Counted from the stretch's first letter, positions 10,909-29,348 are shown. The stretch: 64,000 bases of DNA from a bacterium (GCA_037200965.1 JBBCGK010000001.1:32001-96000); one strand, 5' to 3'. The notes: generated by a model from the letters alone, not told the origin. Numbers and translations are program-made.

Positions 10909-10984
10909 GGGCCGTTAGCTCAGTTGGTAGAGCACCTCATTTGCAATGAGGGGGTCGCAGGTTCGAATCCTGTACGGTCCACCA
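10909..10984 (+). tRNA. tRNA-Ala (anticodon UGC), CCA encoded
   Basis: GGGCCGTTAGCTCAGTTGGTAGAGC...TTTGCAA anticodon loop...GGTTCGAATCC...GGTCCACCA. G3:U70 Ala identity pair. Confidence 0.85.
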
Positions 10985-12515
10985 AATCTGATTTTTCAGC
11001 AACAACCTGCTGATTTATCTCGTAAATCCAACCTAATTTCGCGGTTCCAAAACCTGTATTTTTATCGTATCTAATTCCTTCGGGAAGGACGAGTTTTTGG
11101 AACCGCTTTTGGGCGTCTACCCCGATGCTGCTCCATGTGCGGGGCAGGTCTGAAATAAACGTGGTAGCGTAGGCTATTGCTGCTTCTATGTCGAGCTTAT
11201 CGAGGTTGTTTTCTCGAATGGTGATTTGCTTTGCGGCAATCTCATTGTCGGTCTTCTCGATAATCTCCTTGCCGAAGTCCTCGCTGACCGTGCCTTTGCG
11301 AATCATCTCTGCGTACTCGAACTTCTTTTGGCGCAGCTCCTCAAGTTCGGTTTGCTGCTGCTTGATAATATCGTCGAGTAATGAGGCATTGCTGCGCCAT
11401 ACTTCTACGACAATCTCGCTGAACAGCGCGAGGAACCCTTGCTTTGGAGTGATAGTGCCAAGCCATGCAAGAAAGTCTGTGTGCATCTTTTCTTGCGAAA
11501 TGTTCTTGGCATACATGGGGCACTGCTTATTGTGGCAATGGTAGTAAGAATAAACGCCGCCGTTGCCGCGCGGATGACTGCCACTCAACCCGATACTGCA
11601 AGCGGCGCAGCGTACGTCCCTTGTGAGCGGGAAATCGGGGTGATTCTTGAGCTTCTTGATGACCTTCGGAACCTTTCCTTTGCGGATAAGCTGTACCTGG
11701 ATAAACTCCTCGGGCGTAATCATCGCCTGGTGCTTACCCTCGACTTCTTTGCCCGTGAACGGATTGAGGATGATGCCCGCATAGAACTTATTGGAAAGAA
11801 TCTCGTCAATCTTCTGCGGATAGATTTTGCGGCCTCGCAGCGTCGTGAGACCCCATTGGTTTGCGAGCTTTGCCAGCTCGACGTTGCCACTCACTTTCTT
11901 CTCAAGACAGGCACGGAAAAGCGCCTGAATTATCGGGAAGCGCTTTGGGTCTGGGTCATCGGCTTCCGTCTTTTTCATGCCGCGCCTCTTGAATTGCTTG
12001 CAGGTATAGCCAAGCGGCGACTTCCAGGGATAGATACCCTGATTTATCTTCTCGCTCATACCATCAGAGCACTGCTGCTTCCTGATAGCGTTCTCATAGT
12101 CCGCTGATGCGGCCGCAACCGTCTCGACTAGTTTCTCAATCGGCTTATTGCCGATAGGTTCGGTAACGGAAAGAAGTGTCGTCCCATAACCGGACAACTT
12201 CTTTCTTATAAAGAAATGGTCTTCTGTGCTGCGAGAAAATCTGTTGACACGAAGCACTAGGAACGCATGAATCTGGCCGTTGTGCTTGCGGCAGAACTCG
12301 ATGGCTCTCAAGAACTCTTTTCGATTATTGAGCGATAGGTCTTTTGCTGATTGCCCTTCCTCTCGGAATACTTCGACGACTTCATAGCTGTTGCGCTCGC
12401 AATACCTCCTGCACTCTGCCTCCTGAAACTCCAAGCTCGTACCGTCAACCTGCTCGTCGGATGAGACGCGCACGTAGATGATTGCTTTTCTTGTTGTGGA
12501 AGTTTTCATGCTCAT
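10920..12515 (-). CDS. large serine recombinase (resolvase domain, recombinase domain, zinc ribbon)
   Basis: N-terminus KAIIYVRVSSDEQ carries the catalytic Ser motif. Zinc ribbon CAACS...YYHCHNKQC. The open frame reads through the 3' half of tRNA-Ala on the opposite strand (C-terminus TGFEPATP), which is typical of tRNA-integrating elements. Confidence 0.85.
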   Translation of the reverse strand: MSMKTSTTRKAIIYVRVSSDEQVDGTSLEFQEAECRRYCERNSYEVVEVFREEGQSAKDLSLNNRKEFLRAIEFCRKHNGQIHAFLVLRVNRFSRSTEDHFFIRKKLSGYGTTLLSVTEPIGNKPIEKLVETVAAASADYENAIRKQQCSDGMSEKINQGIYPWKSPLGYTCKQFKRRGMKKTEADDPDPKRFPIIQALFRACLEKKVSGNVELAKLANQWGLTTLRGRKIYPQKIDEILSNKFYAGIILNPFTGKEVEGKHQAMITPEEFIQVQLIRKGKVPKVIKKLKNHPDFPLTRDVRCAACSIGLSGSHPRGNGGVYSYYHCHNKQCPMYAKNISQEKMHTDFLAWLGTITPKQGFLALFSEIVVEVWRSNASLLDDIIKQQQTELEELRQKKFEYAEMIRKGTVSEDFGKEIIEKTDNEIAAKQITIRENNLDKLDIEAAIAYATTFISDLPRTWSSIGVDAQKRFQKLVLPEGIRYDKNTGFGTAKLGWIYEINQQVVAEKSDLVDRTGFEPATPSLQMRCSTN

Positions 12516-12520
12516 GTGTT

Positions 12521-13417
12521 TTATGTTAGGCGGTTCACTGCATCGCGGAGACCAGCATCGCTGACGTGCAGATAGCGGCTCGTGGTCTCCAGCTTTGAGT
12601 GGCCGAGAAGATTCTTGATAGCAAAGAGGTCAACACCGTTGGTCAAAAGCGAAACACTGAACGTATGACGCAGCGAGTGAACACCTACGTGCTCCTTCTT
12701 GATACCTGCTTTCTTGATGTAGTGCTTGATAAGGTGGTATACGCTGCCGGTGCTCAATCCATTGCCAAGCCGACTGATAAAGAGATATGGCACATCGGTC
12801 TCCGGCCGCTTTTCGAGATGCTTGCGCAATACCTCGACTACCACGCAGTTGAGCGGGATAGTGCGTTCTTTATCTCCCTTACCGCGCACCTTGATGGTGG
12901 GCTGCGCCGAATCAAGACTGACGCTGGTGAGCTTGAGCCCTACCAACTCGGAGAGACGGACACCCGTATTGAGGAATGTGATGACAATGGCGAGGTCGCG
13001 TGCAAGGTAAAACGGTGTTGCGGTGCGCTTTACGGCAGCAATCAGCGCTTCGTATTCTTCTTTGGTCAAATAGCTCGGCTCCTTGTGCGGTAGCTTCGGA
13101 GTCTCAACTTCGGCGGCAGGATTTATCGTAAGAGCATCAAACTGCACCAGGTATTTGAAAAAGGATTTTATTGAGGAGAGCTTGCGGGCGCGGGTTACGG
13201 CGCTGTTCGGCTTCTTGATGCCGTTATGCGTGAGTTCCGAGAGGAAGGCGCGGACATCATCACGCGATACTTTCTTGATATTGCTTTTGCCGCGCGACTC
13301 CAAAAACTCGGTGAACTTTTCCAAGTCAAGTCGATATGCAGCCATCGTACGCACCGATGCGTTTTTGTCGCTGTGAAGGTAATTGATGAATTGTGAGATA
13401 TAATTCTGCATAATCAT
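12521..13417 (-). CDS. tyrosine recombinase/integrase (XerC/XerD-like)
   Basis: 298 aa. N-terminal SAM-like domain, catalytic HSLRHTF and LGHSKLETTSRYLH (R-H-R-Y). It lies 5 nt upstream of the serine recombinase. Confidence 0.85.
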   Translation of the reverse strand: MIMQNYISQFINYLHSDKNASVRTMAAYRLDLEKFTEFLESRGKSNIKKVSRDDVRAFLSELTHNGIKKPNSAVTRARKLSSIKSFFKYLVQFDALTINPAAEVETPKLPHKEPSYLTKEEYEALIAAVKRTATPFYLARDLAIVITFLNTGVRLSELVGLKLTSVSLDSAQPTIKVRGKGDKERTIPLNCVVVEVLRKHLEKRPETDVPYLFISRLGNGLSTGSVYHLIKHYIKKAGIKKEHVGVHSLRHTFSVSLLTNGVDLFAIKNLLGHSKLETTSRYLHVSDAGLRDAVNRLT

Positions 13418-15390: not shown

Positions 15391-15767
15391 AAGGGTTGGC
15401 GTCGGCGCGTTGTGAGCAGTTTCTAATTTGTGGAGCTGTTCAAAAGAAAAGACCCGCAGAAGAATCAGAAAACCACTGTGTAAACAGTGTCTTACTAGTT
15501 CCTATGCGGGGCGGAGTTGGTGCCTGGCTATCGAGAAGTCTCGATGTGCTCTGCGGCTAAAAAATTTGCCCTTGCCGTATTAGTTGACGTTGATATGCAA
15601 CGTGCTGACTGGGTACAGTTTAGTGCTGTAGACAATGAGACGCAAGCGTTTTTCAACAATGCTTGTGGAGAGCGACCATGTCAATATGACAGTTTAGTCA
15701 ATTTTGTCATAGTTTGATATACTATGACCATCGGCGTGAGGGATTATTATTAGACCGCCGCTTCAAT

Positions 15768-15968
15768 ATGGCTTCAAAGGACAAAAACTACCTGACGATT
15801 CAAGAAGTCGCCAAAAAATTGGAGGAGCGGCACTTCGACATCACCGAGCGAACGGTGTATCGCTATGTCCAAAAAGGAAAGATACGGGCAATCAAAATCG
15901 GCGGCTGGCGTATCGAGAAAAAAGATTTTGAAAAGTTCCTCGAAGAAAGCTCAAACACCAAGAAATAA
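15768..15968 (+). CDS. excisionase-family HTH protein, first gene of the R-M operon (possible controller)
   Basis: MASKDKNYLTIQEVAKKLEERHFDITERTVYRYVQKGKIRAIKIGGWRIEKKDFEKFLEE. Its stop codon lies 4 nt before the mod ATG. The upstream region is palindrome-rich. Confidence 0.55.
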   Translation: MASKDKNYLTIQEVAKKLEERHFDITERTVYRYVQKGKIRAIKIGGWRIEKKDFEKFLEESSNTKK

Positions 15969-15972
15969 TTTT

Positions 15973-17769
15973 ATGAAGAACCAGCCAACAAAAGTAAATC
16001 TCGCCTCCGCAAATCTCTCCGAGGAGAAGCTGTTTGAGTTGCGGCGTATCCTTCCCGAAGCGTTCAGCGAAAACAAAATTGACTGGGAGAAGCTCCGCAC
16101 GGTTCTTGGCGACGCGGTGGATGCTCATATCGAGAAGTTCGGCTTTACCTGGGCGGGCAAGGGCAACGCCATCAAGAATGTTTTGATACCGAGCAAGGCC
16201 ACGCTCAACCCCGCTCCCGACGAGAGTGTGATGTTCGACGAGAGCCAGAATCTTTTTATCGAGGGCGACAACCTCGAAGTCTTGAAGCTTTTGCAAAAGG
16301 CGTACTTTGAGAAGGTGAAGATGATTTATATAGACCCGCCGTACAACACCGGCGGCGACTTCGTGTACAAGGACAACTTTACCGCACCGCTTGATAACTA
16401 CCTCCATCAGACCGGCCAGAAGAACGGCAACGGCGAGCATCTCACGACAAACAAGGAAACCAACGGCCGCTTCCACAGCGATTGGCTCTCAATGATGTAT
16501 CCGCGTCTCAAGCTCGCGTGGAATCTTTTGCGCGACGACGGCGTTATCTTCATCAGCATTGATGATAACGAGGTGCATCATCTCCGCATATTGCTAAATG
16601 AAGTGTTTGGCGAAGAAAACTTTATTGGTGAGTTTATCGTCGTACGTGCAGAAGGGGGTGGTTTAGCACATCAGTATGTGAAAGGACATGATTATCTGCT
16701 TGCATACGCAAAGTCTATTACAGACTTTGAACCACTCCGTCGCCCGAAAGATATTAGAGGCAAAATTATTGAGAAAGACGGCAAGGAATACTGGATAGAA
16801 GAAGACTGGCTCCGCCGAGAGTTCGGTAAGTACGGCACTCTCCTATACGAAGACATTGAGGAAGTGAAGGGGGCTAACAAGAAAGCGGAAATTGACGCTG
16901 GTTTGCAGAGCGGAGAGTATCAACTGATAAAGAAAAATGGCGGCCATATTGTTGGTCGACTTCGCCTAATTGAAGAAGATGGCTCCAAGTTCTACAGCAT
17001 CCTCAAACATCTTTCTGCGAGGGGAAACGATGATTTGCAGGAATTGGAAATGGGCAAACTCTTTGACTTTCCAAAGCCGGTATCTTTGCTGCGCGAACTC
17101 ATTTTGGGAGCCACGTTCTTTAGTAAGAATGACGGCGATATTATTCTCGACTTTTTCGCTGGCTCTGGTACCACGGCTCATGCTGTAATGGCACAAAATG
17201 CGGAAGATGGAGGCAATCGAAAGTGGATTGCTGTTCAACTACCGGAGAAGACCGAGAGCGATAGCGAAGCGTTCAAAGCCGGATACAAAACTATTGCCGA
17301 CCTTACTAAAGAACGTATACGCCGCGCCGCAAAGAAGCTAGAAAATACTGATGGCTTCAAAATCTTCAAGCTCGCAGCATCAAACTACCCCGAGAACGCT
17401 TTTGAGTTCGACCCAGATAAAACAGAAGACGAGAACAAAGCCGCCTTCGAGGACTACTTGAAGCACGCAAAGCGCGCCAAGCTTATTGACGACCTAGACG
17501 AGACGAGCGTCATCTACGAAAACATCGTCAAGGAAGGATTCTCGCTCAACTCCAAGATTCAGGAAGGCGTGCCAGGAAACAACAAGGTCTACACCATCAC
17601 CGACGGCGACCGGCAGTTTTCTATCTGCCTCGACCGTTCGATTGATGACACGACCGTAAAGAACATCACGGAGTGGGCTAAAGGAGCGACCTTTATCTGC
17701 TTCGATAATGCGCTCTCTGACAGCCAGAAAGCAAACCTCGGCCTCCACGTGGAGCTGAAAACGATATAA
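15973..17769 (+). CDS. mod: Type III restriction-modification Mod subunit (N6-adenine DNA methyltransferase)
   Basis: Motif IV IDPPYNTGGDF precedes motif I DFFAGSGTTAHA (beta-class order). ATG at 15973. The track ORF starts earlier in an overlapping frame. Confidence 0.9.
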   Translation: MKNQPTKVNLASANLSEEKLFELRRILPEAFSENKIDWEKLRTVLGDAVDAHIEKFGFTWAGKGNAIKNVLIPSKATLNPAPDESVMFDESQNLFIEGDNLEVLKLLQKAYFEKVKMIYIDPPYNTGGDFVYKDNFTAPLDNYLHQTGQKNGNGEHLTTNKETNGRFHSDWLSMMYPRLKLAWNLLRDDGVIFISIDDNEVHHLRILLNEVFGEENFIGEFIVVRAEGGGLAHQYVKGHDYLLAYAKSITDFEPLRRPKDIRGKIIEKDGKEYWIEEDWLRREFGKYGTLLYEDIEEVKGANKKAEIDAGLQSGEYQLIKKNGGHIVGRLRLIEEDGSKFYSILKHLSARGNDDLQELEMGKLFDFPKPVSLLRELILGATFFSKNDGDIILDFFAGSGTTAHAVMAQNAEDGGNRKWIAVQLPEKTESDSEAFKAGYKTIADLTKERIRRAAKKLENTDGFKIFKLAASNYPENAFEFDPDKTEDENKAAFEDYLKHAKRAKLIDDLDETSVIYENIVKEGFSLNSKIQEGVPGNNKVYTITDGDRQFSICLDRSIDDTTVKNITEWAKGATFICFDNALSDSQKANLGLHVELKTI

Positions 17770-17771
17770 CT

Positions 17772-20402
17772 ATGAAGTTCAAGTTTGACGCAAACCAAGA
17801 TTTTCAAATAAACGCAGTCAACGCCATCGTTGGCGTCTTTGAAGGTCAGCCGAAGCGTCAAAGTGTGGTAGTAAATGTGCCCGCACTTTCCGTTTCCGGC
17901 TCATTGCCGCTCCAAACTACATACGGCATCTATCCGAACGAGCTGACGCTTTCCGACGAGGAGGTGTTTGCCAACGTCTGGAAGATTCAAGAGCAAAACA
18001 AAATCGGCAATGGCGGCACGGTTGAGGAGTACGACTTTTCTATCGAGATGGAGACGGGTACGGGTAAGACGTATGTGTACCTTCGTACCGTCTTTGAACT
18101 CAACAAGCAATACGGATGGAAGAAGTTTATCGTTCTCGTGCCGTCCGTCGCCATCCGCGAGGGCGTCATCAAGACGCTCCAAATCACCAAAGACCACTTC
18201 GCCGAGCTGTACGACAACGTGCCGTACCGCTTCTACGAGTACCAGTCCAAGAACATCTCGCAGGTGAAGCGCTTTGCGGAATCCAGCAACCTGGAGATTA
18301 TGGTGATGACGGTAGGTGCGTTCAACAAGGACGCGAACGTGCTCTATGCCGCCCGCGACCAGATGCAGGGCGAGCAGCCTATCAGCTACATCCAGCGCAG
18401 CAACCCCGTCCTCATCCTCGACGAGCCGCAGAATATGGAAGGTGAAGCGACGAAGGAGGCGCTCAAGAACTTCAACGCGCTTGCACGCCTGCGATACTCC
18501 GCGACGCATCGCAATCCGTACAACCTCATGTACCAGCTCACGCCGTTCGATGCGTATCAGCTCGGCCTCGTAAAGAAGATTGAGGTGTATTCCGTTACGG
18601 ATGACGACACCGGCATCTCGCGCCCGTCGCTCAACCTCATCTCCGTTGAATCCGGCAAGGCGCTCAAGGCAAAGTTAGAGGCCATCGTGAAAGATGCCGA
18701 CGGCGCATTGAAGCGCAAGAAGCTCACCGTCAAACAGAACGACGACCTCGCGCAGAAGACCGGCAACGACGTATACGCCGGCTATATCGTGGACGAGCTT
18801 GACGCCGATGCGCCAGACCTCGGGCAGATTGGTAGGATTCGCTTTCGCAACAACGTGGAGATTCGCCAGGGTGAAGGCGTAGCAAACAACAACGAGCAAG
18901 TGATGCGCGAGCAGATTGAGCAGACCATCCGCCGCCACTTCGAGAAACGCAACCAGCTCCGCGATATGGGCATCAAGGTGCTCTCCCTCTTTTTCATAGA
19001 CAAGGTAGACAACTACGTTCAATCAGACGGGTTTATCCGCTCTGCGTTCATAGCCGAGTTCAATCGCCTCAAGAAAGACTATGGCGCTGACGGCATGGAC
19101 GTGGATACCGTCCACAAGGGATATTTCGCCAAGCGCGGCGAGGAGTATTTGGAGCGAGAGTCCAGCATCGCCGAGAACCAGGAAGCATACGAGCTGATTA
19201 TGAAGGACAAGGAGCGCCTGCTTTCCTTCGATGAGCCGACGGAGTTCATCTTCTCGCACTCCGCACTCAAGGAAGGATGGGACAACCCAAACATTTTCAA
19301 TATCTGCACCCTGCGCGAGACCGTTTCAGTCATCCGCAAGCGCCAGGAGATTGGCCGAGGTATGCGCCTCTGCGTCAATCAGGACGGAGAGCGTATTTTC
19401 TTGCGCAGCGTCAACCTGCTCTCCGTGATTGCAAACGAGAGCTATACGGAATACGTCTCATCGCTCCAGGGCGAATACGAGGAGGACGGTATCTACAAGT
19501 CTGCGCCGTTGCCGAACAATGCCAAGCGAAAGACCACGGTGAAGCTCAAGAAAGATTTTGATAAGGACACGGACTTTGCTGGTATCTGGGAACGCATCTC
19601 GAAGAAGACCCGCTATGTCGTGCAGGTTGATAGCGAGCGCGTCATCGAAGCGTCCGCAAAGCAGATTGCGAAGCTCCATCTCGCAAAGCCCAAGATGCGC
19701 GTCGAGCGCGCGGGCGTGAACATCGCGGCCGAAGGCATCACCGCAAACATCGTAGGCACCCGTGCCGAGGATTTGAGCCAGACCAAACGCACCATTGACC
19801 CTATCGAACTCATCAAAAACGAGACCAAGCTGACGCGCCACACGGTCGCGGAGATTTTGGCGAAAGCGGACAATACCGACTCCTTCCTCAAGAATCCCGA
19901 ACGCTTCTGCTTCGAGGCAACGCGCATCATCAAGGCCGAGCTGGTGAAGGATTACGTTTCCCAGATTCGCTATGAGGTACTGCCGGAGCAGTATGACCTC
20001 AAGCAGTTCGAGGACATCCCGAGCTACAAGGACGCGACGCACAAGGTGAACAACTCCATCTACGACGCCATCGTGTATGACTCCGACGTGGAGAAGAACT
20101 TTGCCGTCGCCCTCGATGCCGACGAGCGCGTGAAGCTCTTTATCAAGATGCCCAACTGGTTCAAGGTGAACACGCCTATCGGCGGCTACAATCCCGACTG
20201 GGCAATCGTAACGGCCAAGCGAGACCTCCAGGGCAACGAGGAGAAGGAGCGCGTGTATTTCGTGATTGAGACGAAGGGCGACATCTCCAACCTGCGCGAG
20301 AGCGAGGGACAAAAAATTGCTTCCGCGAAGAAGCACTTTGAAGTCATCGAGGTGAACTACAAGGAGGTCGAGAACTACGGGCAATTTGCTGAACAACTAT
20401 GA
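17772..20402 (+). CDS. res: Type III restriction enzyme Res subunit (SF2 helicase plus C-terminal PD-(D/E)XK endonuclease)
   Basis: Walker A METGTGKTYV, DEAH-like ILDEPQNMEG, and a C-terminal nuclease motif (YNPDWAIV...YFVIETKG). Starts 2 nt after mod. Confidence 0.9.
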   Translation: MKFKFDANQDFQINAVNAIVGVFEGQPKRQSVVVNVPALSVSGSLPLQTTYGIYPNELTLSDEEVFANVWKIQEQNKIGNGGTVEEYDFSIEMETGTGKTYVYLRTVFELNKQYGWKKFIVLVPSVAIREGVIKTLQITKDHFAELYDNVPYRFYEYQSKNISQVKRFAESSNLEIMVMTVGAFNKDANVLYAARDQMQGEQPISYIQRSNPVLILDEPQNMEGEATKEALKNFNALARLRYSATHRNPYNLMYQLTPFDAYQLGLVKKIEVYSVTDDDTGISRPSLNLISVESGKALKAKLEAIVKDADGALKRKKLTVKQNDDLAQKTGNDVYAGYIVDELDADAPDLGQIGRIRFRNNVEIRQGEGVANNNEQVMREQIEQTIRRHFEKRNQLRDMGIKVLSLFFIDKVDNYVQSDGFIRSAFIAEFNRLKKDYGADGMDVDTVHKGYFAKRGEEYLERESSIAENQEAYELIMKDKERLLSFDEPTEFIFSHSALKEGWDNPNIFNICTLRETVSVIRKRQEIGRGMRLCVNQDGERIFLRSVNLLSVIANESYTEYVSSLQGEYEEDGIYKSAPLPNNAKRKTTVKLKKDFDKDTDFAGIWERISKKTRYVVQVDSERVIEASAKQIAKLHLAKPKMRVERAGVNIAAEGITANIVGTRAEDLSQTKRTIDPIELIKNETKLTRHTVAEILAKADNTDSFLKNPERFCFEATRIIKAELVKDYVSQIRYEVLPEQYDLKQFEDIPSYKDATHKVNNSIYDAIVYDSDVEKNFAVALDADERVKLFIKMPNWFKVNTPIGGYNPDWAIVTAKRDLQGNEEKERVYFVIETKGDISNLRESEGQKIASAKKHFEVIEVNYKEVENYGQFAEQL

Positions 20403-23400
20403 ACTTCTATGGACTCTTTATCGGGATAGACAGATATGCCTCTCCAAGTATCAACTGGTTGAGTTGTGCAAAGCGTGATGCAGTAGCACTTCATGCGCTC
20501 TTTACTGACACACTTGGCGGCAGCACGAAACTACTTACAGATGAACAAGCCACGCGCCCTACCATTGAAGCGGAGTTTGCAGAACTGGCTAAATGCAAAG
20601 AGGATGACGTGGTAGTCATAACCTTCTCTGGACACGGTACTACTACGCACGAGTTAGTTGTCCATGATGCGGACAGAAGTAATTTGCCAGGCATGTGCAT
20701 CCCGCTTTCAGTTGTAAGCGAGTGGGTTGCAAAAATACCAGCAAAAAAGTTGCTGTTTATCTTGGATTGCTGCTTTTCTGGCGGCATGGGTGCGAAAGCT
20801 CTCCAGGTTGATGTTGTCTCACGTGATATAACTTCAGCCGATGATTTGCTCAAACAACTTTCTGGAGATGGACGGTTGATTTTGACCGCATCGCTTGCCA
20901 CAGAACCTGCTTGGGAGAACCAAAAGCTCGGCCACGGCTTTCTCACATATCATCTGCTGACAGCAATGCAGGGTACCGAAGAAGTGAAAAAGGCAGGTAA
21001 GATTACTGCGTACCGCTTACTTGAATACGTAACGGAAAGAGTGGTAGATGACGCAAAAAAGATTGGTAAAGAGCAACATCCAACTCTCCGCGGCACGATG
21101 GACGGCTCGTTGACGTTTCCTGTATTTACTCCTGGCACGCTATACGCCGCCGCGTTTCCAGAGAGAACAAAAGCAAAAGTTAGTGCAGATATTCAATCGC
21201 TTGAACCCTATGGATTCCCCGAGACCATACTAAAAGCATGGGCGGGTGCGATACCATCGCTCAACCAGTTGCAGATAGACGCTATCAACGACTTCGGGCT
21301 ACTTGATAGTGAGCACTTGGTTGTTTCCGCACCAACATCCTCTGGTAAGACAATGGTTGGTGAACTTGCTGCCATCAGTGGCGCACTGAAACGTCGGAGA
21401 GCACTTTTCTTATTTCCTTTGAAGGCGCTTGTAAATGACAAGCTGCGCCATTTCAATAGCACATACGGTGCGTTTGGTCTGAAAACCATCAAAGCAACTG
21501 GCGAGAGTACAAGCGATGACATGCTCCCTTTGATGCGTGGCCAGTATGATATTTGCTTGATGACGTATGAGAAGTTTTCTGCGCTCGTTCTAGGCTACCC
21601 GCATATCCTTGAGCAAATCGGAACCATTGTAGTTGATGAGGTGCAGATGATTGCCGATGAATCACGTGGAGTGAATCTTGAGTTTATCCTTACACTATTG
21701 AGGATGCGACGTAGAGAAGGAGCTGAACCGCAGCTCATTGCTCTTTCTGCCGTAATTGGTGATACCAACGGACTGGAGCGATGGCTTGGCGGCCGACTGC
21801 TGCGCAGAACAGAGCGTCCCGTGCCACTTGATGAAGGAATTATCAAAGCCGACGGCAGCTTCCGCTATATCGAGTCTGACACTGGAACGGAGAAGACCGA
21901 TACGTCTTATATTATCCCTGAATCACGCAAAGGTTCGAGCCAAGACTTGATTATCCCTCTAGTGCGAAAATTGGTCGGTGAAGGTAAAAGCGTGATTGTA
22001 TTCCGTGAGACACGGGGTGAAGCGCGCGGCTGCGCCCTCTACCTCGCAAGCTCTCTTGGATTGCCGGCCGCACAAGTTGCCCTCGATACATTGCCGAATA
22101 GCGACCCGTCCATCTCATCCAACAAGTTGCGAGAGGCACTTGGAGGCGGTATCGCTTTTCATATATCGGATTTGGATACCGAGGAGCGTCTTGTTGTAGA
22201 GGAACAATTTAGAGCCAGACCTACAGCGCTCAAAGTGATAGCCGCGACCACGACTCTTGCAATGGGAGTGAACACCCCTGCGGAGGCGGTTATCATTGCC
22301 GGTCTCACACATCCAGGAGACCATCCGTATTCAGTTGCAGAGTACAAAAACATCATCGGTCGTGCTGGACGACTTGGCTTCTCGCAGCGTGGCACTTCCT
22401 ACGTTGTCGCAATGAATGGTAGCGATGAACACCACATTTGGAATAGCTACGTTCTTGCATCCCCAGAAGACCTGAACTCCCGCTTTTTGGCAGACCATAC
22501 AGACCCGCGCACATTGATTGTGAGAGTTTTGATAGCTGCTGGTCGTGCGGGTTTGCCAGCACAGCAGATAGTTGAGTTCTTGGAGGAGAGCTTTGGCGTG
22601 TTCCAGCAGAAAGCAATAAACGCTAGCTGGAAATGGGATGAGCAACAGCTTCTGCAAGCTCTCGCTGACTTGAATGCGCACGGATTGGTTGAGAAGGATA
22701 AGGATGATGTATACCACCTCACAGAACTCGGAAAGCTGGCGGGTGTTTCTGGCGTTGAGGTGGAGTCAGTCATTCGAGCTGTGAACGCTTTAAGCGGTCT
22801 GCCGACCACAGACATCAACGACCCTGCACTCATTACGCTCTCGCAAGCAACCGCGGAGCTTGACCAGGTATTATTCCCGATGAATAAGAAAAGCACGCAA
22901 AAAGAACCGCAGGCATGGGCTACTGAAATACGAAATCAAAATGTCCCTACTCAAATAACACAGGAACTTGGGCGCAACACCTCGGATACAACGCAACAAA
23001 CATTGCGCGCTAAAAAAGCAGTAGCAAGTCTACTTTGGATAACTGACCGGCCGCTGAATGAAGTAGAGACAACTATGACACAGTTTGGCGGTGGGCTAGA
23101 TGGTGCCGCTGGTGCAATTCGTGGTGTTGCTGCACGAACGTGTGATGTGCTGCCTACGATTGCTCGCATTGCCGAACTGCTGAATCCTGGTTTTGATTTG
23201 AGCAATCGAGTATCACGACTGTTGATACGGCTTGAGATTGGCGTACCGGCCGCTGGTGTTGAACTCGGCTCTCGCATCGGCAGAATACTTACTCGTGGTG
23301 ATTATCTCAACCTTCTCAAAGCAGGCATCTCTACTGCTGAACAATTTGAGACAGCAGACGAGAAAGTCCTTTTGTCGTGCCTCGGAGACAGCACCGATAA

Positions 23401-23491
23401 ACTTGAACAAGCAAAGCTCGCATTAGAAAACACCTCACAGGAAGAACCTGCTCCGATGATGCCACCGATTTTACCAGCCTATGAAGGATAA
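20399..23491 (+). CDS. caspase-like peptidase C14 domain fused to a Hel308/Ski2-like DExH helicase (1030 aa)
   Basis: The N-terminal ~240 aa has a caspase fold, with the His in VVITFSGHG (H79) and the Cys in LFILDCCFSGG (C124/125). SF2 helicase motifs follow: I APTSSGKT, Ia FPLKALVNDK, II VVDEVQMIAD, III SAV, VI IGRAGRLG. The C-terminus has winged-helix and HhH-like regions (Hel308 domains 4-5). The ATG overlaps the res stop (ATGA). Confidence 0.8.
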   Translation: MNFYGLFIGIDRYASPSINWLSCAKRDAVALHALFTDTLGGSTKLLTDEQATRPTIEAEFAELAKCKEDDVVVITFSGHGTTTHELVVHDADRSNLPGMCIPLSVVSEWVAKIPAKKLLFILDCCFSGGMGAKALQVDVVSRDITSADDLLKQLSGDGRLILTASLATEPAWENQKLGHGFLTYHLLTAMQGTEEVKKAGKITAYRLLEYVTERVVDDAKKIGKEQHPTLRGTMDGSLTFPVFTPGTLYAAAFPERTKAKVSADIQSLEPYGFPETILKAWAGAIPSLNQLQIDAINDFGLLDSEHLVVSAPTSSGKTMVGELAAISGALKRRRALFLFPLKALVNDKLRHFNSTYGAFGLKTIKATGESTSDDMLPLMRGQYDICLMTYEKFSALVLGYPHILEQIGTIVVDEVQMIADESRGVNLEFILTLLRMRRREGAEPQLIALSAVIGDTNGLERWLGGRLLRRTERPVPLDEGIIKADGSFRYIESDTGTEKTDTSYIIPESRKGSSQDLIIPLVRKLVGEGKSVIVFRETRGEARGCALYLASSLGLPAAQVALDTLPNSDPSISSNKLREALGGGIAFHISDLDTEERLVVEEQFRARPTALKVIAATTTLAMGVNTPAEAVIIAGLTHPGDHPYSVAEYKNIIGRAGRLGFSQRGTSYVVAMNGSDEHHIWNSYVLASPEDLNSRFLADHTDPRTLIVRVLIAAGRAGLPAQQIVEFLEESFGVFQQKAINASWKWDEQQLLQALADLNAHGLVEKDKDDVYHLTELGKLAGVSGVEVESVIRAVNALSGLPTTDINDPALITLSQATAELDQVLFPMNKKSTQKEPQAWATEIRNQNVPTQITQELGRNTSDTTQQTLRAKKAVASLLWITDRPLNEVETTMTQFGGGLDGAAGAIRGVAARTCDVLPTIARIAELLNPGFDLSNRVSRLLIRLEIGVPAAGVELGSRIGRILTRGDYLNLLKAGISTAEQFETADEKVLLSCLGDSTDKLEQAKLALENTSQEEPAPMMPPILPAYEG

Positions 23492-24320
23492 AAATATGAT
23501 GAAAAAACGAACAGCAGTAATACTCATCGTCGTCGCTATCGTGGCAACATACGCTGTCATCATGTGGGCGTATTACGGAGACCCTTCATGGTCTAGCAGC
23601 AGCGACACCGCAAGCAGCACCGAGATACCGGCAGACTGCAACGTGCTCGCGTTCAACCTCAACGGAGAGATAGCAACATACCTGCCGCAAGATAGTATCA
23701 GTGAGACCGATTCCGTCTCATCGGCCGATATTCTCGATGGTCTCAAGCTGGCGAAGGAGAACCCGCAAATAAAGGCGGTGCTGCTTTCGGTTGATTCCGG
23801 CGGCGGGAGCGTCGTAGCCGGTGAGGAGATAGCCAACGGCTTCAAGGCGCTCGGCAAGCCCTCTGCGGCGGTTATCCGCGACCTGGGAGCTTCTGCCGCA
23901 TACTGGGCGGCTACCGGCGCAGGCAGGATATTTGCCTCGAAGGTGTCGGATGTGGGTAGTATCGGCATCACCGCCTCATACCTCGACAATACCGTTGCGA
24001 ACGCAAAGGACGGTCTCACGCCCGTGGCAATCGTCTCTGCGCCGTATAAGAACGAGGGCGACCCCGACTTTCCGCTCACGGCAGCAGGCAAGGCGGACAT
24101 ACTCGCATCTATCAAGAAAGACCATGAGGTTTTCGTGGACGAAGTTGCAGCAAACCGGAAGCTCGACCGCAGCAAGGTAGCAGCGCTTGCAGATGGCCGA
24201 ACGTATGTTGGCACCGACGCCGTGGACAACGGACTGATTGACGGCATCGGCAGCATTCCCGAAGCGACCGACTATCTTACTCAACAGATTGGTGAGTCTG
24301 CGCAGGTGTGCTGGTACTAA
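23481..24320 (+). CDS. membrane-anchored S49 family serine peptidase (SppA-like, ClpP fold)
   Basis: N-terminal TM (TAVILIVVAIVATYAVIMWAYY). S49 core LLSVDSGGGSVVAGEEI, catalytic Ser in DLGASAAYWAATGA and a Lys region downstream. The start overlaps the upstream gene's stop by 11 nt. Confidence 0.75.
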   Translation: MKDKNMMKKRTAVILIVVAIVATYAVIMWAYYGDPSWSSSSDTASSTEIPADCNVLAFNLNGEIATYLPQDSISETDSVSSADILDGLKLAKENPQIKAVLLSVDSGGGSVVAGEEIANGFKALGKPSAAVIRDLGASAAYWAATGAGRIFASKVSDVGSIGITASYLDNTVANAKDGLTPVAIVSAPYKNEGDPDFPLTAAGKADILASIKKDHEVFVDEVAANRKLDRSKVAALADGRTYVGTDAVDNGLIDGIGSIPEATDYLTQQIGESAQVCWY

Positions 24321-24972
24321 CCGACGCGCGCAGCATCGTCATATCTTTCTCGCTCATTTTTCCGGCCATCGCCCGATTGAGAATGTTCATCATAAAAGTT
24401 GCCGTCTCGCGCTTGTCGGCGTTTGATTTGATATTCAGAGACTCCTTGCTGTGCGCAGCGCGCATCACATAGTTGAACACGTTTAGCACGTAGTTGCGGC
24501 GCTTCACGATGATGTCATCGTCGTAGCTGCTTTCATCGTCCTGGTCGCGCTTGAGAATATCCATCGCATCGTTGAGCAGCTCGCCTGCAAGGGTGCTCGC
24601 GCCCATCTCTAGCGTCTGCGCATCCGGCACGATGGCGGCATTTTGCTCATCCCGCACCTTGATGATTTGCCGCAGCTCCCGCTGCTCCTGCTTGTAGCCC
24701 TGCTCGGCGAGCAGCTCCGCGTCCCACTTCTTGCGCCACAGGCGATATTGCTTCTCCCAGGGAAAGAAGGTAAACGGGGCGATGGACTTGTTGAAATCGT
24801 TGATGATACGGATGGCGCTGCGGTCTGGTTCCTTGCGGCGCTCGGCCAGGTAGAAGGCGCGGAAGGACGGGAGAAGCTCCCGAAGCTCACCGACCCTCTG
24901 GTATTTGCCGTCAAAGCCCTCGTAGAAGGAGAAGATGGGCTTGGTATCGTTTTGTGGTGTTGATGTGTCCAT
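24277..24972 (-). CDS. hypothetical protein (about 231 aa, start taken at MDTSTPQ)
   Basis: Minus-strand ORF convergent with the S49 gene (43-nt 3' overlap). No recognisable domain. Track ORF 24277..25080. Confidence 0.4.
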   Translation of the reverse strand: MDTSTPQNDTKPIFSFYEGFDGKYQRVGELRELLPSFRAFYLAERRKEPDRSAIRIINDFNKSIAPFTFFPWEKQYRLWRKKWDAELLAEQGYKQEQRELRQIIKVRDEQNAAIVPDAQTLEMGASTLAGELLNDAMDILKRDQDDESSYDDDIIVKRRNYVLNVFNYVMRAAHSKESLNIKSNADKRETATFMMNILNRAMAGKMSEKDMTMLRASVSTSTPAQTHQSVE

Positions 24973-24988
24973 AGGGGCTATAATGAGG

Positions 24989-26554
24989 CTATATCGCAGC
25001 GTGCTGGGGCTGGAGAATGGCTTGCCACTCCTGCAATCCTTCAAGGACTTGGTTCCAGTTCGCGCGGATGTAGTCCACATCGTCGGAGTTGGTGGTAGCT
25101 AACTCCTCAAACAGCCTGGTTTTACTTAGCTTATTTCCGGTTCTATAACCCTCATTTTTGGCATACTCCAATTTGCGCTCAAAGAGGAAGAAAAAGAGCC
25201 GGTGCTGACCATGCACATCGAACAAATCCCAAGTAGATACGGGGCTTTTTAGCATTCCCATACTCTTATCAAGGGCGGTTCTATAAGGTATTCCTAAGTC
25301 CTTGCTGATGAGGGTCGTGCCCTCCATTTTCTCAAGCTCGCGTGCGCTGTCTTCTATCTGAGCTTCATACGTGCGCACTACAGCCTCAGAATTGGCCTTA
25401 CGCGCCATCTCTGACAGCTCCTTGAGCTTCTTCTTCAACTCCTCCTTTCGCTGCTCCTGAAGGTAATCCTGCCATTCAAATATTCTTGACTCCTGTGCCC
25501 ATATTTTATCGAACACGCTAGAAGCAACACCAGTAACGGCAGGCTTGAGTCGGTTGCGTGCGAGCACCTTCTTGAAATCATCCTCGACATCCTTCTTCCG
25601 AAGGGTCTTGAAGTAGAGCTCACACTTCCTGTTCTGGCAGAAGTAGTATTCGTACTTCTTCTTGCTGCGGCTCGTTGATGGAGCTGCTGAAAGATGGCCA
25701 TCACATAGGGCGCAGGTAATGAGGCCACGCAGTGGGAATTGGTCTGAGGTGTCTTTGCGAGGCTTGGCCTTTGCTTCGTCCTTTCCAAGCCGTGCCTGAA
25801 TGCGAAGGAAGGTGTCAGGTTTAATAAGACCTGTGTGCTGTCCGTCTCTTCGAGACACGCCCCAGGGGAGGTATTCAATGAATCCTGCAAAGAAAGGGTC
25901 TTCAAGCATTCCTGAAACATGGTCTAAGCATCGAACAGGCTCCTTACCAGCCCACATACCTCGCTCCACCATAAAGTTGGCGACATCAATCTTTCTTGGC
26001 AAATTGCCGCTCGCGAATCCTTCAAGAGCAGGCTTGATTACCTCGTAGCCAAGCTTATTCGGCTGCGCAACCTTTCCACGGCCAAGAATGAACACCATGT
26101 CATACCCGCGCTTCTTACTGAATGGCCAGTAGCCTGCGAGCAGCCGAGCTTCCATCTTGTTGATTACCTGTTCCGCGTTCTGCTCACGGTCGAGTTCAGC
26201 CTGCGCTGCGAGTACACGCTCAACGAATCTTCCCGAAGGGGAGTCCTCGAAGTTGAAGTTAAGGCAGAGCGGAATAATGTCGCACTCAGTGAACGCTTCC
26301 ATCAGCGCCATATGAAACTTCAGGTCGCGTGCAAAGCGTTTGAGGTCGTCGAAGACAACAACGAACTTCTTATCGCGGTTTGCACGAACATACGCCAATA
26401 ACTCTCGCATGCTTGGACGGCGCATGAAGTCGCCACCTCCTGTGTACGTGTCTATGAAGGACCGGTCATAGGGTATACCAAGCTCTGTAAGTCGAATCTT
26501 GCATCGCGTCTCCTGACTTGATTGGCCACTGCCATTCAGCTCCTGGCTCGAGTT
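24989..26554 (-). pseudogene. large serine recombinase, N-terminally truncated (catalytic serine segment missing)
   Basis: Zinc ribbon CALCDGH...YYFCQNRKC, recombinase domain and coiled coil are present. The frame is open upstream only to a stop at 26555-26557. The upstream part (…SGQSSQETRCKIRLTELGIPYDRSFIDTYTGGGDF) lacks the Y-x-R-x-S-x-x-x-Q nucleophile motif and has no start codon. Confidence 0.6.
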
Positions 26555-28801: not shown

Positions 28802-28871
28802 CGGGCCGCCGGGAATCGAACCCGGTCTACATCCACCCCATGGACGCGTACTACCGGTATACTACGGCCCG
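28801..28871 (-). tRNA. tRNA-Pro (anticodon GGG)
   Basis: Reverse-complement cloverleaf: T-arm GGTTCGATTCC, anticodon loop ATGGGGT. Confidence 0.7.
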
Positions 28872-28896
28872 TTTCGTTCGCTGGTCCTGTGTCCTG

Positions 28897-28967
28897 TCGG
28901 GCCGCCGGGAATCGAACCCGGTCTTTACGCACCCGAAGCGCACGTACTACCGGTATACTACGGCCCG
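28897..28967 (-). tRNA. tRNA-Pro (anticodon CGG), tandem paralog
   Basis: Near-identical to the neighbouring tRNA-Pro outside the anticodon arm. Anticodon loop TTCGGGT. Confidence 0.7.
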
Positions 28968-28984
28968 ACACGACACACGACCTG

Positions 28985-29057
28985 TGGACCCTAGGGAATT
29001 CGAATCCCTGACCTCGTCAATGCGAATGACGCGCTCTACCAGCTGAGCTAAGGGCCC
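28985..29057 (-). tRNA. tRNA-Ala (anticodon CGC)
   Basis: GGGCCCTTAGCTCAGCTGGTAGAGC...TTCGCAT loop...GGGATTCGAATTCCC. G3:U70. CCA not encoded. Confidence 0.75.
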
Positions 29058-29086
29058 GTTCGGAAGAATATAGCACGAGGAACCGG

Positions 29087-29299
29087 CTATTTGGAGTCTT
29101 CTTCCCGCTTCCTGAAGAGGCCATAGAGGCGCTCATAGTATGCGAGGGCTTTCCCTTGGAGAAGAAGGCGCGCGCCGACCATCTCGGCGCCGACGAACAC
29201 GAGCCAGGAGCCGGGCGTGAACGGGGTTACGAGCGCGAGAAGGCCGATGACGATCAGCGCTACCCCGATGATTTTCTTCCATGGCAGGTTCATAGGCAT
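29087..29299 (-). CDS. small membrane protein, hypothetical
   Basis: 70 aa. IIGVALIVIGLLALVTPFTPGSWLVFVGAEMVGARLLL. Confidence 0.35.
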   Translation of the reverse strand: MPMNLPWKKIIGVALIVIGLLALVTPFTPGSWLVFVGAEMVGARLLLQGKALAYYERLYGLFRKREEDSK

Positions 29300-29348
29300 T
29301 CATCATAGCCTTTTCGAGCTCCCTTTGATATCGTGAGCGGGCAATCGA

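What the first reader, a model, noticed from the sequence alone, without database searches (positions are those of the whole stretch)
15768..24320. Five-gene coupled operon: HTH protein, Type III Mod, Type III Res, caspase-helicase fusion and membrane S49 protease
All five genes are on one strand with start/stop overlaps or gaps of 4 nt or less. The gaps are: HTH to mod 4 nt, mod to res 2 nt, res to caspase-helicase an ATGA overlap, and caspase-helicase to S49 an 11-nt overlap. This argues for co-translation and functional linkage. Mod and Res alone make a complete Type III R-M, so the two extra protease-containing genes are surplus to restriction. A caspase-like protease, an SF2 helicase and a ClpP-fold serine protease together look like an abortive-infection or effector module. 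I know of no named system with this composition (BREX, DISARM, Hachiman, Gabija, Druantia, Zorya and others do not match).
Basis: partly seen in the sequence, partly recalled or inferred. Interest (0 to 1): 0.9.

Follow-up and report, generated by a model that had tools for sequence, protein, structure and literature searches.

The report
Stacked defence genes on mobile element
The five tightly packed genes are real, but they are best read as separately mobile defence modules stacked in the cargo slot of a small integrative element in a Patescibacteria genome: a regulator, a complete Type III restriction system, a widespread but unnamed caspase-helicase fusion, and a membrane protease.

Summary
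Window 15768-24320 holds five co-directional genes with gaps or overlaps of 4 nt or less: HTH_17, Type III Mod, Type III Res, a 1030-aa caspase(C14)+Hel308-like helicase (CH), and an SppA-like S49 peptidase. The S49 gene probably starts at 23496, not 23481.

The genes lie in a low-GC island of about 16 kb next to tRNA-Ala, flanked by recombinase genes. The host is a Patescibacteria MAG.

CH is a large family that usually stands alone. Among 127 non-identical loci, a restriction-modification (R-M) operon sits directly upstream only in a shallow clade with at least 74% identity (4/4 other loci plus the window). Below 74% identity the figure is 1/92. S49 follows CH only in the window and two relatives. 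No partner is conserved across the family.

S49 travels separately. Its closest relative (78-80%) ends a Type I R-M operon that has no CH. Other relatives sit in other defence-like operons.

Best reading: a co-transcribed stack of autonomous modules. These are R-M as the first line, CH as a candidate DNA-sensing proteolytic suicide protein, and an extracytoplasmic S49 of unknown role.

Two things are new. The caspase-Hel308 fusion matched no family-specific defence model or paper here. S49 recurs at the 3' side of restriction operons.

The parts
10909..10984 (+). tRNA-Ala(UGC); probable integration site at the left edge of the low-GC island
   Evidence: ARAGORN. GC falls from about 0.60 to 0.45-0.55 between roughly 11 and 27 kb. 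No att repeat of the tRNA 3' end was found.
10920..12515 (-). Large serine recombinase (531 aa), element backbone
   Evidence: Pfam Resolvase 1.2e-25 plus Recombinase. Homologues occur in related elements L083 and L086.
12521..13417 (-). Tyrosine integrase (298 aa), element backbone
   Evidence: Pfam Phage_integrase 1.5e-36. It is 53-56% identical in L083, L086 and L091.
15768..15968 (+). HTH_17 / excisionase-family DNA-binding protein (66 aa) that heads the cargo operon
   Evidence: Pfam HTH_17 1.8e-14. TIGR01764 'excise' 6.7e-10. The MADS mad1 hit is far below its cut-off. An HTH_17 gene heads the cargo whatever the cargo is: L173, L175, L066 and L087.
15973..17769 (+). Type III methyltransferase Mod (598 aa)
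   Evidence: N6_N4_Mtase 5.1e-30 and PADLOC MTase_III 1.9e-164. The IDPPY and FAGSGTT motifs are visible in the translation.
17772..20402 (+). Type III restriction subunit Res (876 aa): SF2 motor plus C-terminal endonuclease
   Evidence: ResIII 3.6e-15, RE_endonuc 7.8e-34 and PADLOC REase_III 2.5e-240. TGTGKT, LDEPQ and PD...ETK motifs are in the translation.
20399..23491 (+). Caspase (C14, about aa 1-235) fused to a five-domain Hel308-like SF2 DNA helicase (about aa 284-1001)
   Evidence: Pfam C14 1.6e-13, DEAD 9e-23 and Helicase_C. NCBIfam Hel308-type PRK02362 7.7e-81 over residues 284-1001, and caspase NF047832 2.8e-25. Best PDB sequence hits are Hel308 at 7e-49, against HamB at 9e-22. AF2 model pLDDT is 75.6; Foldseek versus Hel308/Hjm gives TM(target) 0.80-0.82. 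The H79/C125 dyad and the ATPase motifs are invariant.
23496..24320 (+). SppA-like S49 serine peptidase (274 aa; alternative start 23481) with one N-terminal transmembrane helix
   Evidence: Peptidase_S49 2.2e-28. TIGR00706 SppA_dom 2.5e-39. In PDB alignments the Ser of GASAAY aligns with the MAASGGY serine motif of B. subtilis SppA, and the Lys of APYKNEGDP aligns with GTYKSAVEP of E. coli SppA. The basic N-terminus followed by a hydrophobic stretch predicts N-in/C-out (read from the sequence).
24277..24972 (-). 231-aa protein of unknown function, conserved element backbone at the right end of the cargo
   Evidence: It is 67-78% identical in L083, L170 and L175, which carry different cargo. 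No Pfam family.
24989..26425 (-). Second serine recombinase (478 aa), element backbone
   Evidence: Resolvase 7.7e-11 plus Zn_ribbon_recom.

Best explanation
The five genes are the cargo operon of an integrative element of about 16 kb. The element lies next to tRNA-Ala in a Patescibacteria (CPR) genome.

The operon stacks modules that move independently:
1. A leader HTH_17 gene that belongs to the cargo slot rather than to any one system.
2. A complete Type III R-M system that cuts unmodified incoming DNA (first line).
3. A self-contained caspase-Hel308-like helicase (CH).
4. An optional SppA-like S49 peptidase.

Inferred mechanism for CH. The Hel308-type motor loads on abnormal DNA, such as 3' tails, forks, or broken or replicating phage DNA. 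ATP-driven engagement or clustering on DNA then activates the N-terminal caspase. The caspase cleaves host or phage proteins and aborts the infection. This follows the sensor-helicase logic of Hachiman and the protease-sensor fusions of other defence systems, but in a single polypeptide.

S49 is predicted to have its catalytic domain outside the cytoplasm, so it is unlikely to act on Res or CH. Its role is unknown.

Shown here: gene content, conserved catalytic motifs, fold, mobile-element context, and independent distribution of the modules. Inferred: the defence function of CH, its trigger, and its targets.
For: Mobile-element context:
- Low-GC island, tRNA-Ala, two serine recombinases and a tyrosine integrase.
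- The same backbone carries other cargo. The 231-aa protein is 67-78% identical, and the integrase, HTH_17 leader and small terminal ORFs are shared. Other cargo includes Type I R-M plus S49 (L170, L175), a Type IIG system plus CH (L087), and unknown genes plus S49 (L173).
- The host is Patescibacteria by UvrA.

CH is autonomous:
- 217 genome-collection stretches in many phyla encode a relative.
- More than 70 clusters at 50% identity share the full-length architecture.
- 17 full-length copies lie on plasmids, annotated only as 'DEAD/DEAH box helicase'.
- No neighbour family is shared beyond near-identical copies of one element.
- Immediate neighbours are a defence-island mix: TIR, HamA, CHAT, PLD, ApeA-HEPN, Schlafen, Mrr, BsuBI and ThiF. 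No family is present in more than 3 of 52-54 loci.
- One copy sits alone between a sigma-factor gene and a phosphoribosyltransferase gene (L089).

R-M adjacency is confined to one clade:
- 4/4 other loci plus the window at 74% identity or more, against 1/92 below.
- In the tree, the R-M-linked copies fall in one 10-leaf clade of 104 sequences, interleaved with solo copies.

S49 moves on its own.

CH has an intact caspase dyad and ATPase motifs and a full Hel308 fold.

Literature precedent:
- HamB acts as a Hel308-like genome-integrity sensor (PMC12278908).
- Caspase-like proteases fused to sensors occur in defence, and a caspase with no partner effector protected E. coli from phages (PMC12642450).
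Against: Within the clade at 74% identity or more, every locus with readable upstream sequence has an R-M operon directly upstream of CH, even after a change of R-M type.

Res and CH have diverged in step: 78-81% and 75-79% identity. The Res/CH ATGA overlap is kept in L083.

L177 has an analogous layout with a non-homologous large ATPase: Type III-like MTase and REase, then an ABC ATPase, then S49.

These points fit some functional cooperation, which sequence analysis cannot exclude. No experiment shows that CH defends against anything.
Confidence: 0.6

Rival explanations
1. Two-tier cooperative system. In this clade, R-M and the caspase-helicase are functionally coupled. DNA ends or 3' tails produced when Type III (or Type IIG) restriction cuts invading DNA are the signal that loads the Hel308-like motor. 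Failed or overwhelmed restriction is thereby turned into caspase-driven abortive infection.
For: R-M lies directly upstream of CH in all 5 distinct cassettes at 74% identity or more, including a Type III to Type IIG swap. The translational overlap is conserved. Res and CH have similar divergence. Hachiman's helicase senses damaged DNA (PMC12278908). L177 shows an analogous R-M plus large NTPase plus S49 layout.
Against: More than 90% of distinct CH loci have no R-M beside them, and solo copies (L088, L089, L092) are nested within the same clade. The same cargo slot holds R-M without CH. Adjacency can therefore be explained by a shared slot and co-transfer.
Confidence: 0.2
2. Obligate five-component system. 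HTH, Mod, Res, caspase-helicase and S49 work as one machine, with caspase, helicase and S49 forming its effector module.
For: Tight coupling of all five genes. The same five-gene order is found in L086 and L091. S49 lies next to CH, but in the opposite order, in L085.
Against: Each part occurs without the others: CH without S49 or R-M, S49 with Type I R-M and no CH, R-M plus CH with an unrelated 229-aa fifth gene, and HTH plus CH without R-M (L066). S49 history is incongruent with CH history: the window's S49 is 80% identical to a Type I-linked copy but only 53-55% to CH-linked copies. The S49 catalytic domain is predicted to face outside the cytoplasm.
Confidence: 0.06
3. S49 is a dedicated regulator of restriction enzymes. 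For example, it could be an element-encoded protease that tempers Res/HsdR activity when the element enters an unmethylated host, analogous to ClpXP-dependent restriction alleviation. On this view S49 is linked to R-M, not to the caspase-helicase.
For: S49 is the tightly coupled gene after HsdR in two different Type I operons, after Type III plus CH in three, and within a Type III-like operon in L177. A ClpP-like gene sits inside the Type I operon of L170. ClpXP control of HsdR in E. coli is stated from my own knowledge and was not checked here.
Against: The basic N-terminus and single transmembrane helix predict an extracytoplasmic catalytic domain, as known for B. subtilis SppA. It also occurs with operons that have no recognisable R-M gene directly beside it (L173) and in a phage-like region (L178). 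Only eight contexts were examined.
Confidence: 0.08
4. The caspase-helicase is a DNA-repair or housekeeping helicase that happens to sit next to defence genes, not a defence protein.
For: The helicase part is closest to the repair helicases Hel308 and Pol theta. One copy is flanked by housekeeping genes.
Against: Distribution is patchy across unrelated phyla at high identity. Copies lie on plasmids and integrative elements. Neighbours are defence-island genes. The fusion is to a caspase with a conserved catalytic dyad of the conflict-system type.
Confidence: 0.05

Closest known systems
Type III restriction-modification (EcoP15I-like Mod/Res)
   Same: The mod-res gene order, the N6-adenine MTase motifs, and the SF2 motor plus C-terminal PD-(D/E)xK endonuclease all match. 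Full-length matches to the PADLOC Type III models are very strong.
   Different: Nothing unusual in the R-M genes themselves. The HTH_17 leader and the two extra genes are additions.
Hachiman (HamA nuclease + HamB Ski2/Hel308-like sensor helicase)
   Same: A Ski2/Hel308-like SF2 helicase is coupled to a destructive effector, and the PADLOC HamB models are the top defence hits. The likely logic is a DNA-state sensor controlling an effector (PMC12278908).
   Different: There is no HamA/DUF1837 partner. The effector is a caspase fused in cis. The helicase is much closer to archaeal Hel308 (7e-49) than to HamB (9e-22), and the HamB model scores are only 117 bits or less.
Protease-sensor fusions with latent effectors (caspase or trypsin fused to STAND/Avs or Hachiman, plus EACC1, Pepco, MBL or hydrolase partners; HamMAB; Canu)
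   Same: A caspase-like protease domain of the 'EACC1-associated' type (NF047832, 2.8e-25) is fused to an NTPase sensor. The concept is described in PMC12642450 and PMC13434031.
   Different: No conserved adjacent substrate or effector gene exists across the family. The sensor is a Hel308-like helicase, a combination I found in no paper searched. It most resembles the 'effector-independent caspase' noted in PMC12642450.
Archaeal Hel308/Hjm and the Pol theta helicase domain
   Same: Full five-domain fold, with TM 0.80-0.82 normalised to the target. The sequence match spans residues 284-1001.
   Different: It is bacterial and mobile, scores far below the orthologue cut-offs (272 against 887 bits), and carries an N-terminal caspase.
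Signal peptide peptidase SppA (S49), short Gram-positive type
   Same: S49 domain, aligned Ser and Lys catalytic residues, and a single N-terminal membrane anchor. Close relatives are annotated SppA in Parcubacteria.
   Different: It is encoded at the 3' side of restriction or defence operons on mobile elements. It scores below the TIGR00706 cut-off (135 against 155 bits).
Defence-cargo hotspots of mobile elements (P2/P4 hotspots, SXT ICE hotspots)
   Same: A conserved backbone carries a variable slot filled with different R-M and candidate defence genes. The comparison with P2/P4 and SXT hotspots comes from my own knowledge.
   Different: The element family is different: Patescibacteria-type, with tyrosine integrase plus serine recombinases and an HTH_17-led slot.

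Membership tests
Type III R-M | Mod: N6/N4 DNA methyltransferase with DPPY and FxGxG motifs | tested here: met
   PF01555 5.1e-30 and PADLOC MTase_III 1.9e-164 over residues 6-593. IDPPY and FAGSGTT are in the translation.
Type III R-M | Res: SF2 ATPase motor plus C-terminal PD-(D/E)xK endonuclease, encoded just downstream of mod | tested here: met
   ResIII, DEAD and RE_endonuc 7.8e-34, and PADLOC REase_III 2.5e-240. The mod-res gap is 2 nt.
Type III R-M | Methylation and ATP-dependent cleavage activity | not testable with these tools
   Needs biochemistry or methylome data.
Hachiman | HamA (DUF1837) nuclease partner next to the helicase | tested here: not met
   None of the five genes hits HamA. 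HamA is next to a CH homologue in only 1 of 54 loci.
Hachiman | Helicase belongs to the HamB family | tested here: not met
   Best HamB model scores 117 bits with partial coverage. PDB HamB is 9.3e-22, against Hel308 at 7.4e-49.
Hel308 (orthologous DNA-repair helicase) | Five-domain Hel308 fold (two RecA domains, winged helix, ratchet, helix-hairpin-helix) | tested here: met
   Foldseek to 2zj8, 2va8, 9b15 and 2p6r gives TM(target) 0.79-0.82. NCBIfam alignment covers residues 284-1001.
Hel308 (orthologous DNA-repair helicase) | Score above the curated equivalog cut-off | tested here: not met
   272.5 bits against 887 for PRK02362, and 217 against 1200 for NF040935.
Caspase / Peptidase C14 | C14 fold with a His-Cys catalytic dyad | tested here: met
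   PF00656 scores 51.3 bits (cut-off 21.4) over residues 6-232. H79 and C125 are invariant in 22 sequences.
Protease-effector defence modules (EACC1, Pepco, MBL, hydrolase) | A dedicated latent effector gene conserved next to the protease | tested here: not met
   No neighbour family occurs in more than 3 of 52-54 dereplicated loci. Clustering finds none beyond copies of one element.
SppA / S49 peptidase | S49 domain with a Ser/Lys dyad and a membrane anchor | tested here: met
   PF01343 scores 99.6 bits. Ser and Lys align with the catalytic-motif positions of B. subtilis and E. coli SppA. The N-terminal hydrophobic helix is read directly from the sequence.
SppA / S49 peptidase | Score above the NCBIfam SppA cut-off (equivalog) | tested here: not met
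   TIGR00706 scores 135.1 against a cut-off of 155.45.
MADS (methylation-associated defence system) | MAD1 HTH above cut-off, plus the other mad genes | tested here: not met
   The MAD1 hit is 32.9 bits against a cut-off of 80. No other mad model hits the operon genes.
BREX / DISARM / Druantia / Zorya / Gabija | Signature proteins (PglZ/BrxC, DrmB/DrmC, DruE, ZorAB, GajA) | tested here: not met
   In the displayed hits, PADLOC gives only weak BrxHI/II helicase-core matches of 71 bits or less and no signature proteins; for Mod and CH only the best 25 families were shown.

The most novel reading that the evidence does not exclude
Two undescribed things may be present.

(a) The caspase-Hel308 fusion may be a new, widespread single-protein immune sensor. 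It would convert abnormal DNA into proteolytic cell suicide. In this clade it may be wired to use the DNA ends made by the adjacent restriction enzyme as its trigger.

(b) SppA-like S49 (and ClpP-like) proteases may be dedicated accessory components of restriction and defence operons on Patescibacteria mobile elements. That would be a protease layer of R-M biology with no described counterpart.
Probability: 0.2. Interest if true: 0.75.

Novelty: new variant of a known kind. Interest (0 to 1): 0.5.

Why it matters
A family with more than 70 clusters at 50% identity is present in many phyla and on plasmids. Every plasmid-borne copy examined is annotated only as 'DEAD/DEAH box helicase'. The family joins a conserved caspase active site to a complete Hel308-type DNA helicase.

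If it defends cells, it links two current themes in one testable polypeptide: helicases as genome-integrity sensors, and caspase-like proteases as bacterial death effectors. It would also give a bacterial role to a Hel308-type helicase, which PMC12278908 describes as absent from bacteria.

The recurring S49 protease at the end of different restriction operons is an unexplained association and merits a systematic survey. The locus also shows how defence cargo is exchanged on integrative elements of Patescibacteria, which have small genomes.

Tried and rejected
- **Conserved partner of the caspase-helicase.** All-against-all clustering of flank ORFs and Pfam scans of immediate neighbours found none.
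- **att repeat of the tRNA-Ala 3' end.** None within 3 mismatches. General repeat search gave only chance-level short repeats.
- **Promoters and terminators inside the operon.** Not above shuffled expectation.
- **Literature on a caspase-helicase or Hel308 defence fusion.** Nothing found. For S49 with R-M, nothing found either.
- **Phage origin.** Only 1 viral contig carries a CH relative, and none carries a close S49 relative.
- **The alternative fifth gene (229 aa in L083/L001).** No significant family. There is only a sub-threshold HEPN hint (E=0.012) and no PADLOC hit. It is unrelated to S49 by tblastn.
- **Filing CH under Hachiman, the HTH under MADS, or the operon under BREX/DISARM.** Rejected; see the membership tests.
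- **The antisense 312-aa ORF at 19458-20396.** It lies inside res on the opposite strand. I treated it as spurious and did not test it.
- **Strict monophyly of the R-M-linked copies.** Not found. Solo copies are interleaved with them.

Full report
**1. Observation**

The ORF table and sequence confirm five co-directional genes:
- HTH, 15768-15968.
- Mod, 15973-17769, after a 4-nt gap.
- Res, 17772-20402, after a 2-nt gap.
- A 1030-aa protein, 20399-23491, with an ATGA overlap onto Res.
- An S49 peptidase ending at 24320.

ATG 23496 is more likely. It has a GAAGGA Shine-Dalgarno-like sequence about 7 nt upstream and is the start used in the public annotation. That gives a 4-nt gap. Consensus scans give no support above chance for internal promoters or terminators.

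**2. Domain content**

- Pfam, PADLOC and NCBIfam confirm all five assignments.
- Mod and Res are a textbook Type III pair. PADLOC MTase_III scores 1.9e-164 and REase_III 2.5e-240. The DPPY, FxGxG, Walker A, DEPQ and PD...ETK motifs are visible.
- The 1030-aa protein (CH) has a Peptidase_C14 domain at residues 6-232.
- Its helicase part aligns over residues 284-1001 to Hel308-type helicases (PRK02362, 7.7e-81).
- Its best solved relatives by sequence are archaeal Hel308/Hjm (7e-49). Next come the Pol theta helicase domain, ASCC3 and Brr2. HamB of Hachiman is far weaker at 9e-22.
- An AlphaFold2 model has mean pLDDT 75.6. It superposes on full-length Hel308/Hjm with TM 0.79-0.82 normalised to the target.
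- In 22 homologues of 60-79% identity, H79, C125, GKT316-318 and D413/E414/Q416 of the DEVQ box are invariant.
- The S49 protein aligns with SppA structures. The Ser of GASAAY falls on the MAASGGY serine motif of B. subtilis SppA. The Lys of APYKNEGDP falls on GTYKSAVEP of E. coli SppA.
- The S49 N-terminus is basic (MKDKNMMKKR) and is followed by a hydrophobic helix. This predicts an N-in/C-out orientation, with the protease domain outside the cytoplasm. That is an inference from the sequence, consistent with what I know of B. subtilis SppA.

**3. Genomic setting**

The operon lies in a low-GC island: about 0.45-0.55 against about 0.58-0.62 in the flanks. The island begins at tRNA-Ala(UGC), 10909-10984. 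On the left it carries a serine recombinase and a tyrosine integrase, and on the right a second serine recombinase.

The window is part of a 960-kb contig of a MAG labelled only 'bacterium'. The best named relatives of its UvrA are Patescibacteria, Parcubacteria and Paceibacterota, at 82-86% identity.

**4. Neighbourhoods of the caspase-helicase**

CH is a large family:
- 1973 proteins with E of 1e-3 or better among the 8000 scored candidates. The top 120 are all about 1030 aa with at least 59% identity.
- More than 70 clusters at 50% identity with the same full-length architecture, down to about 31% identity.
- 217 confirmed stretches in the species-representative genome collection, spanning CPR, Elusimicrobiota, Proteobacteria, Bacteroidota, Cyanobacteria, Actinomycetota, Acidobacteriota, Planctomycetota and others.
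- 17 full-length copies on plasmids, all annotated only as 'DEAD/DEAH box helicase' or 'superfamily II helicase'.
- Only one copy in 2.9 million viral contigs.

In the 80 genome loci, only the closest one (L001, 79%) has HTH-Mod-Res upstream. None has S49 next to CH. Clustering of flank ORFs finds no family shared beyond about 15 near-identical copies of one alphaproteobacterial element.

Pfam scans of the immediate upstream (52) and downstream (54) neighbours of dereplicated loci show a typical defence-island mixture. It includes ThiF, other caspases, Schlafen/AlbA, BsuBI/PstI, Eco57I-type MTase, Mrr, ApeA-HEPN, Fic, TIR, HamA, CHAT, PLD and Tle1-like lipase. No family is present in more than three loci.

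After adding 80 metagenomic loci, I binned 127 non-identical loci by identity:

| CH identity to window | R-M operon directly upstream, same strand | S49 directly downstream |
|---|---|---|
| 74% or more | 4/4 other loci plus the window | window, L086, L091 |
| Below 74% | 1/92 | 0/94 |

In an NJ tree, the R-M-linked copies fall in one 10-leaf clade out of 104 distinct sequences. Solo copies are interleaved with them: L088 in a defence island, L089 between a sigma-factor gene and a phosphoribosyltransferase gene, and L092.

**5. The R-M-linked clade**

| Locus | CH identity | Gene order |
|---|---|---|
| L083, L084, L001 | 79% | HTH - Mod - Res - CH - unrelated 229-aa protein |
| L086, L091 | 75-76% | HTH - Mod - Res - CH - S49 (the full five-gene order) |
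| L087 | 75% | HTH - Eco57I-like Type IIG enzyme (992 aa) - Eco57I-type MTase (534 aa) - CH |
| L085 | 89% | S49 homologue directly upstream of CH; contig cut further upstream |
| L066 group | 67% | HTH_17 directly upstream of CH, no R-M |

- In L083, the Res/CH ATGA overlap is preserved. The 229-aa fifth gene has only a sub-threshold HEPN hint.
- In L086, the backbone again consists of a serine recombinase and a tyrosine integrase.
- Res (78-81%) and CH (75-79%) have diverged to a similar degree between the Type III cassettes.
- Mod (53-56%) and HTH (45-56%) have diverged more.

This pattern fits long co-residence of R-M and CH in one cargo slot. It is also the main evidence for possible functional cooperation.

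**6. S49 goes its own way**

Contexts of the closest S49 relatives:

| S49 relative | Identity to window S49 | Context |
|---|---|---|
| P0122 (L170-172) | 78-80% | Last gene of a Type I operon: HsdM - ClpP-like 181 aa - HsdS - 268 aa - HsdR - S49. No CH. |
| P0126 (L175/176) | 56% | Ends a second Type I operon |
| P0125 (L173/174) | 55% | HTH_17 - 257 aa - S49 - 437 aa - 419 aa - DUF2726 |
| P0130 (L177) | 55% | Type III-like MTase - Type III-like REase - 1011-aa ABC ATPase (Ppl/AriA/mad3-like) - S49 - DUF2726 |
| P0147 (L178) | 52% | Next to a terminase gene |

More distant relatives are annotated as SppA of Parcubacteria.

The S49 identity matrix disagrees with the CH tree. The window's S49 is 80% identical to the Type I-linked copy but only 53-55% identical to the CH-linked copies. 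The L085 S49 is 87% identical to that of L177.

The minus-strand 231-aa gene that follows S49 in the window is 67-78% identical in elements with quite different cargo: L083, L170 and L175. A family of small ORFs of 60-83 aa also marks the end of the cargo. So HTH_17 marks the head of a variable slot in a conserved element backbone, and the small ORFs plus the 231-aa gene mark its tail. S49 is an optional gene near the tail.

**7. Interpretation**

The best-supported reading is a co-transcribed stack of separable modules on a mobile element.
- The Type III R-M is complete.
- CH has everything needed for a sensor-effector in one chain and is usually found alone. I therefore treat it as an autonomous candidate abortive-infection protein.
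- By analogy with HamB, whose helicase reports DNA damage and releases an effector (PMC12278908), I infer that DNA engagement by the Hel308-like motor activates the caspase. The caspase-like proteases fused to sensors in other defence systems point the same way. So does the caspase with no partner effector that protects E. coli (PMC12642450).
- Activation most plausibly works by bringing caspase domains together. None of this is shown.
- The two-tier rival remains open, at about 0.2. It proposes that restriction products trigger CH.
- The obligate five-gene machine and the 'caspase+helicase+S49 module' are not supported.
- S49's recurrent position after restriction genes is real but unexplained. 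Its predicted extracytoplasmic catalytic domain argues against direct action on Res or CH.

**8. Comparison with known systems and novelty**

The R-M part is ordinary. CH works like a Hachiman-type or protease-sensor system but fails the membership tests for both:
- It has no HamA partner.
- Its helicase is not HamB-type.
- It has no conserved effector partner.

PADLOC v2 (2023) has no specific model for it. The full-text searches returned no paper describing this fusion. Caspase-less relatives keep the same helicase core with other C-terminal additions, one of them a GHKL ATPase. This is consistent with a modular sensor.

I rate the finding as a new variant of a known kind and of moderate interest. 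It is not low, because the caspase-Hel308 family and the S49-restriction association both appear undescribed, and both can be tested directly.

Noticed in passing
L170 1645-2190 (also L171): A 181-aa ClpP-like protease gene (PF00574, 2.2e-17) sits between hsdM and hsdS of a Type I R-M operon that also ends with the S49 gene. That puts two ClpP-fold proteases in one restriction operon.
   Followed up: partly
L177 880-9541: The operon reads Type III-like MTase, a 713-aa Type III REase-like protein, a 1011-aa ABC ATPase (Ppl/AriA/mad3-like), S49, then DUF2726/DUF559. The layout is analogous to the window, but a non-homologous large NTPase takes the place of the caspase-helicase.
   Followed up: partly
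L173 4512-9951: HTH_17, a 257-aa protein (weak PDC-S48/TerB-like), S49, 437 aa, 419 aa, DUF2726 and 197 aa form an uncharacterised, tightly packed operon in the same kind of element. A C5-MTase/R.HinP1I/Vsr module lies about 0.6 kb beyond its last gene.
   Followed up: no
window 24277-24972 (-): A 231-aa protein with no Pfam, NCBIfam or PADLOC hit is 67-78% identical across elements with different cargo. It is better conserved than S49, Mod and the HTH leader, so it is probably a core function of the element.
   Followed up: partly
window 15683-15723: A palindromic ATGACA...TGTCAT region with overlapping promoter-like hexamers on both strands lies about 50-85 nt upstream of the HTH_17 start. 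It could be the operator or promoter of the cargo operon.
   Followed up: no
P0343-P0378 (representative search): Relatives of about 900-1070 aa align from query residue ~265 onwards. They have the same Hel308-like core without the caspase, but with about 200 extra C-terminal residues. In P0368 the extra region is a GHKL/HATPase_c domain. This suggests that effector or partner domains are swappable.
   Followed up: partly
L083 13129-13818 (also L001, L084, L122, L136): A 229-aa protein occupies the S49 position after the caspase-helicase. Its only hit is a sub-threshold RiboL-PSP-HEPN match (E=0.012).
   Followed up: partly
window 28801-29423 and 31739-31812: A cluster of tRNA genes (Pro-GGG, Pro-CGG, Ala-CGC, Val-CAC, and Ala-GGC further on) lies just right of the island, after a YceG-like gene at 27683-28801.
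   Followed up: no
window 5636-8320: The best named relatives of UvrA are Patescibacteria, Parcubacteria and Paceibacterota at 82-86% identity. The 960-kb contig is therefore probably most of a CPR genome, with an unusually high GC content of about 58-60%.
   Followed up: partly
L088 329-6384: A caspase-helicase homologue (73% identity) lies in an island with CTD6, MC2 and SLFN-g3 helicase genes. Those are the conflict-system domains of Kaur et al. 2020. An Mrr-like gene and a ParE/PhD toxin-antitoxin pair are also present.
   Followed up: no
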